In this document: in pieces, positions 27,001 through 39,000 of the stretch
Layout: every line of letters begins with the position of its first letter
How positions within the stretch are numbered: position 1 is the stretch's first letter
NCBI RefSeq assembly: GCF_003918875.1
Contig: NW_025767236.1
Coordinates: 186,001-250,000, forward strand
Source of the DNA: Haliotis rubra
Taxonomy: Eukaryota
Reading direction: 5' to 3'
Length of the DNA: 64,000 bases
Made by a program: the position numbers

Positions 27001-30000
27001 CCCACCGTTTCCACACCAACAGCTGCACACTGTCCGGGCGGGTGCCAATAAACAGACCATTCCTGGTATTACCGCCGACAGTTGTCAGACACAATACCCA
27101 CACCCTAATTTCTACACCAACACACTGTCCGGCGCAGGCTCTCGGCGGGCAGGCAATATACTGCACACTGTCCAATATACTAGACACTGTCCGGCAGGCA
27201 CAATGTATACCAACGGACGGGTAGCAATATACAGACGCACTGTCGGGCGTTGCGCCAATATAGGCAGGCGCCGCCAATATACAGACACTGTCGGGCAGAA
27301 ACCACCAATATACAGACACTGTCCGGGCAGGCACCCCCAATATACAGACACAATACCCCCCTAGTTTCTACACCAACAGTTGCACACTGTCCGGACAGGC
27401 CGTAATATACAGACACAATACCCACCTCTAGTTTCTACACCAACAGTTGCACACTGTCCGGGCGGAAGCCGCCAATATACAGACACAATACCCACCCCTA
27501 GTTTCTACACCAACAGTTGCACACTGTCCGGGCAGGCATACAATATACAGACACAATACCCACCCCTAGTTTCTACACCAACACACTGTCCGGGCAGGCA
27601 CCACTAATATGCAGACACAATACCTACCCTAGTTTCTACACCAACAGCTGCACACTGTCCGGCAGGCAGCATCAATATACAGACACAATACCCACCCCTA
27701 GTTTCTACACCAACACACTGTCCGGGCAGGCACCGCCAATATGCAGACACAATACCCACCCCTAGTTTCTACACTAACAGTTGCACACTGTCCAGGCAGG
27801 CCCGTAATATACAGACACAATACCCTCCCCTGGTTTCTACACCAACAGTTGCACACTGTCCGGGCAGGCTGCCAATATATACAGACACAATACCTACCCC
27901 CAGTTTCTACACCAACAGTTGCACACTGTCCAGGCAGGCATACGCCAATATACAGACACAATACCCACCCTAGTTTCTACACCAACAGTTGCACACTGTC
28001 GGGCAGGCACCAGGCCAATATACAGACACAATACCCTCCCCTAGTTTCTACACCAACAGTTGCACACTGTCCGGGCAGGCACCGCCAATATACAGACACA
28101 ATACCCACCCCTGGTTTCTACACCAACAGTTTGCACACTGTCCGGCAGGCACCGCCAATATACAGACACAATACCCTCCCCTAGTTTCTACACCAACAGT
28201 TGCACACTGTCCCAGGCAGGCGCCGCCAATATACAGACACAATACCCACCCCTGGTTTCTACACCCAACACACTGTCGGGCAGGCACCGTAATATACAGA
28301 CACAATACCCTCCTGGTTTCTACACCAACAGTTGCACACTGTCCGGGCCGAAGCGCAATATATATATACAGACACAATACCTACCCCCAGTTTCTACACC
28401 AACAGTTGCACACTGTCCAGGCGGCGCCGCCAATATACAGACACAATACCCACCCCTAGTTTCTACACCAACAGTTGCACACTGTCCGGGCAGGCGCCGC
28501 CAATATACAGACACAATACCCACCCCTAGTTTCTACACCAACAGTTGCACACTGTCCGGGCAGGCGCCGCCAATATACAGACACAATACCCACCCCTAGT
28601 TTCTACACCAACAGTTGCACACTGTCCGGGCAGGCAACCGCCAATATACAGACACAATACCCTCCCCTAGTTTCTACACCAACAGTTGCACACTGTCCGG
28701 GCAGGCGCCGCCAATATACAGACACAATACCCACCCCTAGTTTCTACACCAACACACTGTCCGGGCAGGCACCGCCAATATACAGACACAATACCCACCC
28801 CTAGTTTCTACACCAACAGCTGCACACTGTCCGGGCAGGCACCGCCAATATACAGACACAATACCCACCCCTAGTTTCCACACCAACAGCTGCACACTGT
28901 CCGGGCAGGCGCTGCCAATATACAGACACAATACCCACGCCTAGTTTCTACACCAACACACTGTCCTGGCAGGCACCGCCAATATACAGACACAATACTC
29001 ATACACATCTATGCACAAAAACAAATCCAAACTAAATTTTCCAATTTATTATTTCGAATTTACACAGCTTCCCTGAAATATTGATTATCACTGACAGACA
29101 TGAGTTGTGGGCACATCTATTTCCAACATTTCAATCACTTACTAAGTGACATTTTCATACCTAATTAAAGGACATATCAACAATAACTGCATGGCATAAT
29201 GGCAATACATGACATCTTAAATATCACATTTATGTCGACTTCTGATTGGCTGAGATCCCTCCCAATATATTCAATGTACAGCTAACATAAAAGGTACATT
29301 TCGTATCTGAGTTGGCAAACTGTTGACATTACATTTGCAATATATCAAATTAATGAGGCAGCTGAAATTCTGATGATAGTCACGATATTTTCTGAATGAA
29401 ATAGATCCAGTGGGGATAACTCTAGATGTTTTTTCATCTACAATACATGCCTAACTGTGGTATTCTTACAACTTCCATACAAACCATCCACGCATCAGAT
29501 ATATCTACAATGTAATTTGGTTTGTTAAATACTCCATCAAGCATTAGGCTGTACCCACAGACTGTAAACCAACCCATGCACCCTTAAGATGGTAGAAACA
29601 AAAATACACCACAAAAAGACATTATTTTCAATAACGATGTATATTCAATATGTTAATTAAATGAGTTGTCCAAGGGATGGTAGCCCAATGCATGTTATCA
29701 CGATCAGAATAATGAGTTAACCAGAGGTCCGAGAGGCAATCAGGATGGGTCACATGTTTTGTCTGGCCACATCTTCAGGTTATCAGTTTCAGAAGTAGGT
29801 GTCTTCAGAACAGCATTCATCCTGCCATCGAACAGCCCGAACACCCCACCTGCAACAGCAAGAATAACAGTAAACTATGCGAGTGAGTGAGTTGGGTGAG
29901 TTGGGTTTGATGCCACCTACAAATGTGAAGACAATAATATCCTGTCCCCTTTACTTTTACCTGTATGAAGAAACAAGAGCCTGTCCCCCTTGAATCTACC

Positions 30001-36000: not shown

Positions 36001-39000
36001 GCAATATTTCAGCAATATCATGGTGGGGGGCACCAGAAATGGGTTTCACACATTGTACCCATGTGGGGAATCGAACCCGGGTCTTCGGCATGACAAGCCA
36101 ACACTTTAACCATTAGGCTACCCCATCGTCCGCCAGCAACATCAGCCTCTGAGCAGGTCCTGATAAATGTATCTCATGAATAGCAATACAAAAATGTACA
36201 CATGATAAATTAGTACTTTTCTTTTCTGTCATAATCAAACATAACACAATTCAAAGAAAGAAGTTTGGCAACTTTTTAGCATACTTGTACTTTCTCAGTT
36301 CTCAGTTCTGTGTTGTGGGATCCATGTAATAATGATTCTGCTCCACATTTAGAGTGACAGATTTTCTCTGTGTACTAAGAGAGTAATCATTAACTCATAG
36401 ATAGATATACACCATAAAACTGAGTTGGCGGACAAAGAGGTGATTAGAAGACTTGAATCAGGTTTGCTTTGACTACCAGTTTTGATGGATTATAAGTTAG
36501 GTATTTTACCTGCACTCGGAACTTTGGTATAAATTTCAATTCTTTTGCCCATGATGGGGGGTTGTAAGGTTCAAGAAATGTTGTCATCTTCTGCACCCTT
36601 TGATAAATGATCCTGGTAGGTTCAACCTTCAATGTCTGTAAACAATGCTGACTTGTCCGTATCTTCCCCACAACTGCTACACTTGATCTCATTCTCTTAG
36701 TCAACGTAGGCTGACCTACATACAGAGACTATATAAATACATTGAAGATAGCAAGATACGACCTGTTTATGTAAACATAATGAATATACTGGGTATGCAA
36801 TAGGAGTCGTTCGAAAACAGGTTACGCGACGTTGAGGTTAGTAGCTGTGTCTCCCTCATGTTCGCGAAGTGGGCTCAATGTACACACCCTTCTCAACACT
36901 GGGTACATCTTGGTTTTTGCACTCCAGTTAAAACTGTGCGTTGCAAGTCAGAATTTTGGTGCCCATGTCATGGTGAAAGAGAAGAGTACATGTGCTTTAT
37001 TCAAAGAAAAGACTGATGTAATTTTGTGTGCATTTCACTGTTATCTGACGTTAACAATTCGTATTTGAACTGTGTGAACTTTTTAATGTGATATAGTGAA
37101 TTCTGACGATATAATGTATATTGTTGTCCGCTTAATTACTGATGTTTTATAAACGTCGTCGCTTTATTTGTTCGAAAACCGGTTACGCGAGGATACTATT
37201 TGCCAATTTACATCACAAAACAAAACATATTCATCCACTCGCCAACACTGATTTCGTCAGAGTTGAACTGACTGCATGTAAGAGAGTGTCACTGTAAAAA
37301 TGTGCTGTTATTACAATACCTAGCACCAGTTAAGTGCTCCATTATGGTGTAAACAAGAAAATATATGCGGTCTTCCATGGAACGACTTTTGTGGGAATAA
37401 TCTACCCTTGGTTATTTACATATTTGTTCCACAACAACGGAATAGACTATGCTTGGAGGCAAAACGTAGTCTTTCATATTTTAAGTTTTCAAGTGAATGT
37501 AAAGGATACACATTGCACCTTTACGTTCTTAAGGGTTATGACATTGTTGGGCTCTTGGAAAGTAAATGTCAAGAATTAAAAATATTTACAGTAAGTTCGT
37601 TCCACATTCATTGGTACACTTTTAATAGTGATCCATACGATTAAACTGGTTCCTTTGCTGGTATGCGATGCAAGCTAAAACTGGTTTCGCTATTTGTACG
37701 CGATGTACGGTTACCGTTTGCTGTAGACAATAGCCCAGTCTATTCTAAAATGGGAGCATCCAAACGTGAACGCTCAACATAAATGAAACCGGTAAACCTT
37801 GATATGCAGTATTTTGAAAGGACTCTGAAACATGTGACGAATCATCACATCTCGCTTGCCTGTCCCAGAAGTTTTCATAGTTTGCCGCAAGAATTTAATT
37901 CGTAGGCCATTTAGTGAATTGACTGATAATAAGTTATCTAAATAAATTAAACTATAACTGCATTATTTGATGTTATGCCATTGTTTAATGCAAAAATATA
38001 ATAACATCATTTGTGACGTTTTCCTTAACCACTGTTTAACTGTTCACAGGGTAATCACGAAGTCTGTATGATTTGACACCCGACATCGTGACACGCCCTT
38101 GAAGAGATGTAGTGTCAAAAGATTGTTAATAAATTCAGTATCGTGTGTGTCCACCATTGGCGTTGATGTTGGCTTGACAACGACGACGCAAGGACGATAC
38201 TAAGCGATTGAAGAAAGTTTGAGGAATGTTATTCTGTGTCTGAACTAACGTTTGTACCAATTCAGCTAATGTATACAGCTGGAATTGCCTGATTTGATTA
38301 GACAGCTGTCATACAGCATGAATTGCCTGATTTGATTAGACAGCTGTCATACAGCAGGGATTACCTGATTTGATTAGACAGCTGTCATACAGCTGGAATA
38401 TAGTTGAGTGTGACATTAAAACACATGTATACTGAGTCAAAAAAGAAACTTCACATTCTTTCTTCAGGGCACTATAAAAGAACAAGAGATGGTTATTATT
38501 TCATTGCTGAGATCTGTGTGATGTACTCGATACACTGACAGTGCCATAATCAGTTCCATTAGGCTACACCGCCGTTCCAAAACATGGGTATACAGAATGT
38601 CAAGTCACAAGAATAAAAATGCGAAATTTCTCAGTTCAATATCGTGTATGGCCGCCCCGCGCATTCACCACTGCCAAACACCGTCTCCTCATCGAGTGCC
38701 TGATGCTTGTGAACACGTGGTTGGTGATTCTGCGCCATTGCTCTTGCAAGGCAGCGCCAAGTTCCTGCAAATTCTGAGGTTGGTTTCTAAGACCACGAAG
38801 CCTTCTCCCAAGTGCATCTCAAACGTGCTCTATTGGATTAAGGTCAGGGGACCTCGATGGCCAGTCCATGACGTTGATTCCAGCGTTTTGAAGGCAATTT
38901 CGTGTCAACATCGCGGCATGCGGCCGAGCATTATCATGCTGGAACTGTAGACCTGGGCCATGAGCCGCCATGAAAGGAACGAGTTCAGGGGTGAGCACCT

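What the first reader, a model, noticed from the sequence alone, without database searches (positions are those of the whole stretch)
29740..36587. Gene-wide pattern: introns grow by amplifying the gene's own exon borders
Three of eight introns (4, 6, 8) of one apparently intact enzyme gene are largely filled by minisatellites derived from the adjacent exon. The neighbouring NEK gene shows none of this, and its minisatellite is SINE-derived. Inference: a local mechanism such as slippage or repair at exon-intron borders, possibly transcription- or splicing-coupled, creates splice-site VNTRs. These may be an under-described source of intron expansion and isoform variation.
Basis: inference. Interest (0 to 1): 0.65.

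Follow-up and report, generated by a model that had tools for sequence, protein, structure and literature searches.

The report
Exon-border minisatellites filling abalone introns
Three introns of an abalone enzyme gene have been lengthened six- to tenfold by tandem repeats copied from the neighbouring exon, a rare but already described kind of repeat (the "mirage" minisatellite) that appears to leave the protein unchanged.

Summary
A 9-exon, minus-strand D-cysteine desulfhydrase/ACC-deaminase-family gene (Haliotis rubra) has three introns (4, 6, 8) that are 86-92% minisatellite.

- **Intron 8:** the 39-nt unit is the last 34 nt of exon 8 plus the first 5 nt of the intron. It supplies 20 extra copies of the donor site.
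- **Intron 6:** the 49-nt unit is the last 6-7 nt of the intron plus the first 42-43 nt of exon 7. There are 18 intronic copies, and 6 keep the acceptor AG.
- **Intron 4:** the 23-nt array does not contain the border. It shares an exact 18-mer with the interior of exon 4.

The annotated protein uses the exon-proximal site at both junction arrays, so the arrays are spliced out. An old paralogue in the same window carries an independent, degenerate duplication of the same exon-8 donor junction.

The NEK neighbour shows none of this. Its array belongs to a Tc1/mariner-like transposon, not a SINE.

This class is already in print: amphioxus "mirages", and the human F7, IFI 6-16, CBS, LMNB2 and PDGF boundary minisatellites. 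Ordinary tandem duplication plus a splicing "filter" explains it. The excess at junctions is only suggestive (post hoc p about 0.01-0.04). No evidence supports a transcription- or splicing-coupled mechanism.

Verdict: a new member of a known kind, of modest interest.

The parts
29740..36692 (-). Gene Q: D-cysteine desulfhydrase/ACC-deaminase-family gene. Nine coding exons: 36692(36587)-36510, 35622-35509, 35063-34905, 34564-34428, 33393-33294, 32766-32666, 31625-31462, 30895-30755, 29849-29740.
   Evidence: Exon ends, phases and GT-AG sites. Exon-by-exon NCBIfam hits colinear on TIGR01275. Identical database protein P0001. P0001 scores 294.9 bits against a cut-off of 289.4.
29924..30788 (-). 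Array A (intron 8, 30754-29850). The 39-nt unit is the last 34 nt of exon 8 (30788-30755) plus the first 5 nt of the intron. There are 20 pseudo-donors of the type CAG|GTA(A/G)A after the authentic one. The first 11 intronic units are exactly 39 nt (13 codons, in frame).
   Evidence: One search counts 21 such sites including the authentic one.
31583..32516 (-). Array B (intron 6, 32665-31626). The 49-nt unit is the last 6-7 nt of the intron, including the acceptor, plus the first 42-43 nt of exon 7 (31625-31583). There are 18 intronic copies: 6 keep TAG, 7 have TAC and 5 have TGC. Each unit holds a hairpin-forming inverted repeat of about 10 bp.
   Evidence: DNA fold z = -4.5, with 0 of 200 shuffles as stable.
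33484..34419 (-). Array C (intron 4, 34427-33394). The unit is about 23 nt, with about 42 copies, and starts 8 nt after the donor. It is G-rich on the coding strand and shows a four-unit (83-nt) higher-order repeat in its distal part.
   Evidence: Autocorrelation at lag 83 is 0.72 against 0.57 at lag 21.
34498..34515 (-). An 18-mer in the interior of exon 4 (codons for a conserved stretch). It is identical to the core of array C units.
   Evidence: 12 matches with at most 1 mismatch, 11 in array C and 1 in exon 4, with 0 in 100 shuffles. Also.
3409..19291 (+). Paralogue P, exons 2-9 (exon 1 lies outside the window): 3409-3522, 14631-14789, 15529-15665, 16290-16389, 16921-17021, 17635-17798, 18549-18689, 19170-19291. 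It has the same intron positions as gene Q.
   Evidence: tblastn exon by exon. Database protein P0005. 54% identity to P0001.
18779..18852 (+). Degenerate copy of the end of P exon 8 plus its donor, sitting inside P intron 8 about 153 nt downstream of the authentic junction. A possible weaker third copy lies at about 18891-18965.
   Evidence: BLAST 18625-18699 against 18779-18852, 77% identity, E 9e-12. Alignment A1. The third copy is seen only in the alignment and has no BLAST support.
17021..17052 (+). (AGTG)8 microsatellite that begins at the donor of P exon 6 and reiterates GTGAGT-like donor motifs every 4 nt.
41999..54559 (+). NEK-family kinase gene (control gene). Seven exon segments were mapped, and none has copies in its introns.
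   Evidence: Pkinase hit. Best solved relative NEK1, E 1.9e-15. 100%-identical named protein P0014. Exon mapping and intron search.
44496..46794 (-). Tc1/mariner-like element carrying the 38-nt array (44496-45295). A second copy at 38273-39950 has only 3.3 units.
   Evidence: 95-97% identity between the two copies. DDE_3 and HTH_Tnp_Tc3_2 domains.
35967..36128 (-). tRNA-derived SINE in intron 1 of gene Q. It is one of at least 9 copies of the family in the window.
   Evidence: Rfam tRNA, 29.9 bits, at 36059-36127.

Best explanation
These are 'mirage'-type minisatellites: ordinary local tandem duplications that happened to include, or in one case abut, a splice junction of a pre-existing short intron.

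**Shown**
- Array A's unit runs from 34 nt inside exon 8 to 5 nt inside intron 8.
- Array B's unit runs from 6-7 nt inside intron 6 to 42-43 nt inside exon 7.
- The exon parts encode residues conserved from bacteria to molluscs, so the exon is the source and the array is the copy.
- The annotated protein joins the FIRST donor of array A and the LAST acceptor of array B, so every extra copy lies in the intron.
- The arrays show block (multi-unit) duplications and a homogeneous core.

**Inferred**
- The first duplication arose by slippage or unequal exchange between short direct repeats. For array B, a 10-of-11-nt repeat between the original polypyrimidine tract and exon 7 flanks exactly one 49-nt unit.
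- The duplication was tolerated because the spliceosome keeps using the exon-proximal site, as shown experimentally for human F7.
- The arrays then grew like any minisatellite, taking introns of about 100-170 nt to about 900-1040 nt.
- Duplications inside exons are removed by selection. In a compact gene with short introns, a sizeable share of the survivors therefore carry a junction.
- Array C probably began with a short template switch that copied an 18-nt exon-interior piece next to the start of the intron.
For: **Anatomy and source**
- Unit anatomy and in-register copies.
- Per-unit identity to the exon border is 84-100%.
- Of 17 exons of the two paralogues, only Qe4, Qe7, Qe8 and Pe8 have intronic copies.
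- There are no dispersed copies of arrays A, B or C elsewhere in the window, so they are not TE-borne.
- The exon parts are conserved. R355, F356, K357, V361, L362, F363, H365, T366 and G367 are invariant in 6 of 6 aligned proteins.
- Intron positions are shared with paralogue P.

**Splicing and growth**
- P0001 reads straight from the end of exon 8 into exon 9, and from exon 6 into exon 7, with no repeat insert.
- Higher-order periodicity: lag 78 is at least as strong as lag 39 in the exon-near half of A, and lag 83 beats lag 21 in distal C.
- With the arrays removed, introns 4, 6 and 8 collapse to 98, 166 and 111 nt.
- Null probability of spanning a junction: 0.18 for a 39-nt seed and 0.22 for a 49-nt seed.

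**Independent event and literature**
- The paralogue has its own junction duplication. Copy 2 carries P-specific bases, so it arose after the P/Q split.
- PMC1557585 (abstract and Introduction read): the upstream-most donor is used in the F7 IVS7 VNTR.
- PMC3087553 (passages read): mirages occur at both 5' and 3' boundaries and do not disturb splicing.
Against: - Placement is somewhat more junction-biased than the uniform null. Two of two junction arrays in gene Q has joint p about 0.04. Three of 7-8 non-TE genic arrays in the window gives p 0.009-0.013. All of these are post hoc.
- All three arrays in Q sit in its three shortest ancestral introns.
- Array C does not fit a simple junction duplication, and its origin path is a guess.
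- Splice-site usage rests on an automated annotation (P0001). I saw no RNA evidence.
- No population or cross-species DNA was available, so neither the instability nor the age of the arrays was tested.
Confidence: 0.75

Rival explanations
1. Junction-targeted mutagenesis. Exon-intron borders are intrinsically prone to tandem duplication, for example through R-loops, G-quadruplexes or stalled polymerase/spliceosome complexes near splice sites, followed by error-prone repair.
For: - Four junction-associated repeats occur among 15 introns of the two paralogues, and none occurs away from junctions in gene Q.
- The exon-8 donor junction was hit independently in both paralogues.
- The excess over the uniform null is p 0.009-0.04.
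- All three arrays are G-rich on the non-template strand, with GC skew +0.27, +0.35 and +0.44 against +0.08 in a plain intron.
- Array C is a G4-motif tract at loop lengths up to 12.
- Two of the 4 canonical G4 motifs in the 64-kb window lie in the duplicated part of P intron 8.
- PMC3087553 (passage read) calls the mechanism that generates mirages 'unclear'.
Against: - The p-values are post hoc, and the window was picked because it looked odd.
- Breakpoints share no motif or fixed distance from the splice site.
- Array C excludes the border.
- P's other arrays (8660-9758, 13153-13595, 17997-18289) have no exon similarity.
- The chance that P's single event falls on a junction also hit in Q is about 0.13-0.19 (my arithmetic).
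- Arrays A and C show no significant DNA secondary structure.
Confidence: 0.15
2. The arrays are kept because they do something. They could be U1-binding donor decoys, G-run intronic splicing enhancers, or a source of regulated isoforms carrying extra 13-residue inserts.
For: - All 20 pseudo-donors of array A keep GT.
- The first 11 intronic units keep an exact 39-nt, in-frame length, and an open frame of 224 codons runs through them.
- The human IFI 6-16 and CBS genes use the two nearest pseudo-donors (PMC1557585, Introduction read).
Against: - The in-frame part is simply the youngest, at 96-98% self-identity.
- Older units have indels of 38, 35 and 22 nt.
- Changes between units include non-synonymous ones.
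- Array B's 49-nt unit is out of frame.
- The paralogue and the annotated proteins of H. rufescens relatives carry no such insert.
- Array ORFs match no protein family beyond repeat-driven noise.
Confidence: 0.05
3. Assembly artefact: repeat copy numbers or positions were mis-assembled, so the introns are not really filled like this.
For: Long minisatellites are hard to assemble. PMC3087553 (supplement legend seen in the main text) notes a mis-assembled mirage in the amphioxus draft genome.
Against: - There are three different units at three places, each with structured variants at 80-89% matches.
- The arrays have clean unique flanks and consistent splice sites.
- An artefact could change the copy number, but not the existence of junction-spanning units.
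Confidence: 0.03

Closest known systems
[quoted passage not shown] Sources: PMC3087553 and PMC3902484, passages read. The original paper, Canestro et al. 2002, is not held.
   Same: - Head-to-tail units contain both exon and intron sequence with the splice signal.
- Both 5' and 3' boundaries are affected.
- Units range from 10 to about 160 bp.
- Many but not all copies keep AG or GT.
- Normal splicing is reported as unaffected.
- The core of the array is homogenised while the edge units diverge.
   Different: - The host is a mollusc, not a cephalochordate.
- Copy numbers are much higher here (18-22 against 3-6 in BflGb6).
- There are two junction arrays plus one exon-related array in one gene, and an independent event in its paralogue.
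- No polymorphism or somatic-instability data are available here.
Human minisatellites whose first monomer spans an exon-intron boundary: F7 IVS7 (37 bp x 5-9), IFI 6-16 intron 2, CBS IVS13, LMNB2, PDGF intron 4. Source: PMC1557585, abstract and Introduction read.
   Same: - The authentic donor is followed by identical pseudo-donors.
- Only the upstream-most site, or the first two or three, is used.
- Array A has the same layout, and its annotated protein uses the first donor.
   Different: - The F7 unit is 4 exon nt plus 33 intron nt. Array A's unit is 34 exon nt plus 5 intron nt and is in frame.
- The acceptor-side array B has no counterpart in that list.
- No minigene or RNA data exist here.
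Variable internal tandem repeats at exon-intron boundaries in human segmental-duplication genes. Source: PMC2812944, passages read.
   Same: Tandem repeats overlapping exon-intron boundaries change intron structure and can give alternative splicing.
   Different: Those cases mostly create new introns or alternative transcripts in young primate paralogues. Here, old introns are lengthened and the protein is unchanged.
Intron gain by tandem duplication of an AGGT-containing segment. This is the Rogers 1989 model as cited in PMC3087553. The potato RdRp case (PMC4974935) was seen only in a search listing.
   Same: The same mutational event: a tandem duplication that yields duplicate splice signals.
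   Different: No new intron is formed here. Introns 4, 6 and 8 are at positions shared with the paralogue.

Membership tests
Mirage / boundary-spanning minisatellite | Head-to-tail tandem array of minisatellite-size units | tested here: met
   TRF gives 39 nt x 21.8, 49 nt x 19.2 and 23 nt x 42.4. Copies are in register.
Mirage / boundary-spanning minisatellite | The unit contains both exonic and intronic sequence with the splice signal, and the authentic junction is the terminal unit | tested here: met
   Met for array A (34 exon + 5 intron nt, donor) and array B (6-7 intron + 42-43 exon nt, acceptor). Also met in degenerate form in paralogue intron 8.
Mirage / boundary-spanning minisatellite | Same feature, tested for array C (intron 4) | tested here: not met
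   The array starts 8 nt inside the intron. Only an 18-nt identity to the exon interior, 71-88 nt upstream of the donor, links it to the exon. Array C is exon-related but is not a mirage in the strict sense.
Mirage / boundary-spanning minisatellite | The extra splice sites stay silent and the normal mRNA is made | tested here: inconclusive
   The named annotated protein P0001 has no insert. It is an automated model, and no RNA data were available.
Mirage / boundary-spanning minisatellite | Copy-number instability or polymorphism (VNTR behaviour) | not testable with these tools
   Only one haplotype is in the window, and no eukaryotic genome collection was available.
D-cysteine desulfhydrase / ACC-deaminase family (NCBIfam TIGR01275, Pfam PALP) | Whole-protein score above the curated cut-off | tested here: met
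   Database protein P0001 scores 294.9 bits against a cut-off of 289.4. Paralogue P0005 scores 268.8 bits, below the cut-off. The window's exons are colinear on the profile, positions 3-308 of 321.
D-cysteine desulfhydrase / ACC-deaminase family (NCBIfam TIGR01275, Pfam PALP) | Specific substrate (D-cysteine, ACC or other) | not testable with these tools
   No equivalog model reached its cut-off. The name on P0001 is the annotation's own.
TE-borne minisatellite (the rival origin) | The unit, or the array with its flanks, recurs as a dispersed element | tested here: not met
   Window self-BLAST finds no copy of arrays A, B or C outside their own introns. By contrast, the 38-nt array in the NEK gene does recur with a Tc1/mariner-like element.

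The most novel reading that the evidence does not exclude
In minisatellite-rich marine invertebrate genomes (abalone here, amphioxus in the literature), splice junctions may be true hot spots for minisatellite birth. One route would be structure-prone, G-rich non-template DNA just inside introns stalling replication or forming R-loops during transcription. On this reading, 'mirages' would be a systematic, lineage-wide driver of intron growth and of splice-site redundancy, rather than survivors of random duplication.
Probability: 0.12. Interest if true: 0.65.

Novelty: new member of a known kind. Interest (0 to 1): 0.3.

Why it matters
- It extends boundary-spanning minisatellites ("mirages") from amphioxus and a handful of human genes to a mollusc.
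- It gives an unusually rich single locus: a donor-side array, an acceptor-side array, an exon-related third array, and an independent event in a paralogue.
- The locus is a natural test bed for how splice sites are chosen among up to 20 identical competitors. It can also address how short introns become long, and whether junctions are mutational hot spots or merely the places where duplications survive.
- For genome annotation, such arrays are a warning. Gene predictors can pick the wrong copy of a repeated splice site.

Tried and rejected
- **TE or SINE origin of arrays A-C:** rejected. There are no dispersed copies in the window.
- **Arrays as coding repeats or genes on either strand:** rejected. 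Six array or TE ORFs gave only repeat-driven Pfam noise, with 0 stretches passing. P0001 has no insert.
- **Known RNA families in 25000-38000:** only the tRNA-like head of a SINE was found.
- **Further old exon copies in other introns:** a sensitive BLAST of 17 exons +/-40 nt found only the P intron-8 copy. The other 17 hits had E of at least 0.011.
- **Hairpin-driven slippage:** significant only for array B (z -4.5). A, C and the exon-4 palindrome were not significant (z -0.5 to -2.4).
- **Selection against pseudo-acceptors:** the four copies nearest exon 7 all lack AG. Given 12 of 18 copies lacking AG, that has p about 0.16 (my arithmetic), which is not significant.
- **Shared origin of the Q and P exon-8 duplications:** rejected. 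P copy 2 carries P-specific bases, and the periods differ (39 against about 153 nt).
- **Origin of the 48-nt array at 1-2647:** P exon 1 is outside the window, so this could not be tested.
- **Cluster look-up for accessions or isoforms:** the database was switched off.
- **Papers not held:** Canestro 2002 (PMC117041) and Zhuo 2007 (PMC1783408).
- supplementary files, eukaryotic genome collections, and the metagenome and viral collections. Cross-species and population comparisons therefore stayed unchecked.
- **Joined protein step:** left out. All searches with the window's own gene models were exon by exon. Whole-protein checks used database proteins.

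
Full report
**Source and ground rules**

The window has no N. It is not human. The first kinase exon is 100% identical to a named NCBI protein of Haliotis rubra, the blacklip abalone, on a 772,724-nt contig. That same contig size is listed for the proteins of the two enzyme genes.

The step of joining exons into one protein was left out. Whole-protein statements rest on database proteins returned by those searches (P0001, P0005, P0014).

**The gene**

On the minus strand there are nine exons separated by eight GT-AG introns.

Six of the nine exons hit NCBIfam TIGR01275, the D-cysteine desulfhydrase/ACC-deaminase family. 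The hits are in colinear order over profile positions 3-308 of 321.

A named NCBI protein, P0001 (402 aa), is identical to these exons and adds 35 residues upstream, starting at 36692. It scores 294.9 bits against the family cut-off of 289.4. The gene is intact.

**The arrays**

TRF reports 41 rows for the window. Three large arrays fall inside the gene.

| Array | Coordinates | Unit | Copies | Matches | Share of intron |
|---|---|---|---|---|---|
| A (intron 8) | 29924-30788 | 39 nt | 21.8 | 80% | 831 of 905 nt |
| B (intron 6) | 31583-32516 | 49 nt | 19.2 | 89% | 891 of 1040 nt |
| C (intron 4) | 33484-34419 | 23 nt | 42.4 | 84% | 936 of 1034 nt |

With the arrays removed, introns 4, 6 and 8 would measure about 98, 166 and 111 nt. 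They would then be the three shortest introns in the gene.

*Array A.* Read on the coding strand, each unit is the last 34 nt of exon 8 followed by the first 5 nt of intron 8.
- The authentic donor is followed by 20 further sites of the same type, 21 in all.
- The first 11 intronic units are exactly 39 nt, or 13 codons. An open frame of 224 codons runs from exon 8 through them.
- More distal units carry indels of 38, 35 and 22 nt.
- Units in the middle of the exon-near half are 100% identical to the exon copy.

*Array B.* Each unit is the last 6-7 nt of intron 6, including the acceptor, plus the first 42-43 nt of exon 7.
- Of 18 intronic copies, 6 keep the acceptor AG, 7 read TAC and 5 read TGC.
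- The four copies next to the true acceptor all lack AG. Given 12 of 18 without AG, that has p about 0.16 (my arithmetic), so it is not evidence of selection.
- The two copies nearest exon 7 are the most diverged (84-86%), and more distal copies reach 96-98%. This matches the pattern reported for amphioxus arrays, where the edges escape homogenisation (PMC3087553, passage read).
- The sequence just upstream of the array ends in a pyrimidine-rich 10-mer that also ends every unit. It matches exon 7 positions +33 to +42 at 9 of 10 bases, or 10 of 11 with the next base (read directly).
- A short direct repeat therefore flanked exactly one 49-nt unit before amplification. That is the classic substrate for slippage, but this step is an inference.
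- Each unit also forms a hairpin of about 10 bp (z = -4.5, 0 of 200 shuffles as stable).

*Array C.* This array is different. It begins 8 nt after the donor and contains no border.
- Its link to the exon is an exact 18-mer shared with the interior of exon 4 (34498-34515), 71-88 nt upstream of the donor.
- With up to one mismatch the 18-mer occurs 12 times in the window: 11 in the array and 1 in the exon. None occurred in 100 shuffles.
- The 18-mer encodes residues that include two invariant positions of the family. The exon is therefore the older copy.
- The remaining 5 nt of the unit match the sequence just after the donor. A short template switch through 4-nt microhomologies would produce the unit, but this path is a guess.

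**Direction and age**

The exon-derived parts of A and B encode conserved protein. For A, nine positions are invariant in 6 of 6 aligned proteins from abalone to a bacterial-type relative. The arrays therefore copy the exon, not the reverse.

A paralogue, P, lies on the plus strand (exons 2-9 at 3409-19291; database protein P0005). It shares every intron position that can be compared but is only 54% identical to P0001. The introns thus predate an old duplication, and the arrays are later expansions of existing introns. They are not intron gains.

**Wider survey**

Each of the 17 exons of the two paralogues was searched against the window with short flanks.
- Only Q exons 4, 7 and 8 (12, 18 and 20 intronic hits) and P exon 8 (1 hit) have intronic copies. 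The other hits are Q-to-P cross-matches.
- A more sensitive search confirmed the P copy: 18625-18699 against 18779-18852, 77% identity, E 9e-12. Nothing else scored below E 0.011.
- The P copy includes the end of exon 8, a good donor and the start of the intron, with a period of about 153 nt.
- It carries P-specific bases. It also keeps a codon state that the H. rufescens relatives still have but the H. rubra exon has lost.
- It is therefore an independent and fairly old event at the same junction that carries array A in gene Q.
- A third, weaker copy is suggested only by the alignment.

The NEK-family neighbour was used as a control (best solved relative NEK1, E 1.9e-15; P0014).
- It shows no exon-derived intron copies for the 7 exon segments mapped. 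Residues 87-102 and 128-179 were not mapped.
- Its 38-nt array (44496-45295) belongs to an element present twice at 95-97% identity, carrying Tc1/mariner-type transposase domains. It is not SINE-derived.
- The window's tRNA-derived SINE family is separate. It has at least 9 copies, including one in Q intron 1.

**Is the placement more than chance?**

I modelled a seed duplication placed uniformly in the gene with the arrays collapsed, and kept only seeds that are wholly intronic or span one junction.
- The chance of spanning a junction is 0.18 for a 39-nt seed, 0.22 for 49 nt and 0.47 for 148 nt.
- The chance that a 23-nt intronic seed lies within 8 nt of a junction is 0.04.
- Over all mapped introns of the three genes, p per array is about 0.067. 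Seeing 3 or more junction-spanning arrays among 7-8 has p 0.009-0.013.
- These figures are post hoc, because the locus was chosen for looking odd. They also depend on assumed ancestral intron lengths.

They are suggestive but not compelling.

**Mechanism**

The best-supported reading has four steps:
1. An ordinary local tandem duplication, by slippage or unequal exchange seeded by short repeats.
2. Survival of those duplications whose extra copy can be spliced out.
3. Continued use of the exon-proximal splice site.
4. Minisatellite growth by out-of-register exchange.

Evidence for step 4: autocorrelation at two units (lag 78, 0.978) is at least as strong as at one unit (0.963) in the young half of A. 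A four-unit period (lag 83, 0.72) beats the single unit (0.57) in distal C.

Evidence for step 3 comes only from the annotation (P0001) and from precedent. In human F7, identical pseudo-donors downstream of the authentic site stay silent because selection proceeds 5' to 3' (PMC1557585, abstract and Introduction read).

A structural contribution cannot be excluded.
- All three arrays are G-rich on the non-template strand.
- Array C is a G4-motif tract at loop lengths up to 12.
- Two of the four canonical G4 motifs in the window sit in the duplicated part of P intron 8.

It remains an inference.

**Comparison with what is known**

- The Introduction of PMC1557585 lists human genes with minisatellites whose first monomer spans an exon-intron boundary. 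They are F7 (37 bp: 4 exon + 33 intron nt), IFI 6-16 (25 pseudo-sites), CBS, LMNB2 and PDGF. Only the first one to three donors are used.
- PMC3087553 (passages read) describes "mirages" in amphioxus globin genes, and cites Adh3 and other loci. These are minisatellite-like duplications of both 5' and 3' boundaries that do not disturb splicing. The generating mechanism is called unclear.
- PMC3902484 (one passage read) adds TnC and PGBD5.
- PMC2812944 (passages read) reports tandem repeats at exon-intron boundaries in human segmental-duplication genes.
- A whole-word search for "mirages" with splice, tandem and intron returned 4 papers. The two relevant ones are both on amphioxus.
- A search combining mollusc, minisatellite, introns, tandem repeats and exon-derived returned 3 papers, none relevant by title or abstract.
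- The original Adh3 paper and Zhuo et al. 2007 are not held. Supplements were closed.

**Verdict**

It is unsupported where it invokes transcription- or splicing-coupling, and it overstates novelty. This is a new, unusually rich member of a known kind, apparently the first noted in a mollusc within the library searched.

Noticed in passing
window 3409-19291 (+): A second, old paralogue of the enzyme gene (54% protein identity) lies tail-to-tail with the first. Its intron 2 is 11.1 kb and holds an LTR-retrotransposon remnant (gag/protease/RT ORFs at 4018-6776, minus strand) plus two unrelated minisatellites (8660-9758 and 13153-13595).
   Followed up: partly
window 17021-17052 (+): An (AGTG)8 microsatellite starts exactly at the donor of paralogue exon 6. 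It reiterates GTGAGT-like donor motifs every 4 nt, a micro-scale version of the same theme. The annotated protein uses the first one.
   Followed up: partly
window 25344-28998: A 3.6-kb compound array (32-, 70- and 211-nt periods) fills most of the space between the converging 3' ends of the two paralogues. It shows no similarity to their last exons.
   Followed up: partly
window 1-2647: A 48-nt array of at least 55 copies runs off the start of the window, upstream of paralogue exon 2. Exon 1 is outside the window, so I could not test whether this array is also exon-derived.
   Followed up: partly
window 38273-39950 and 44496-46794: There are two copies, 95-97% identical, of a Tc1/mariner-like element with a subterminal 38-nt repeat. 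The repeat has 3.3 units in one copy and 21 in the other, showing array growth inside a transposon after insertion.
   Followed up: partly
window 10078, 15325, 16397, 21191, 35967, 53851, 54837, 59939, 63722: At least nine copies of a tRNA-derived SINE of about 170 nt occur in the window. One has an Rfam tRNA hit at 36059-36127.
   Followed up: partly
window 18741-18779 and 18849-18876 (+): Two of only four canonical G-quadruplex motifs in the whole window flank the duplicated exon-8 junction copy in paralogue intron 8, on the coding strand.
   Followed up: no
window 42670-42730: A short telomere-like (CCCTAA)n tract lies inside the first large intron of the NEK-family gene.
   Followed up: no
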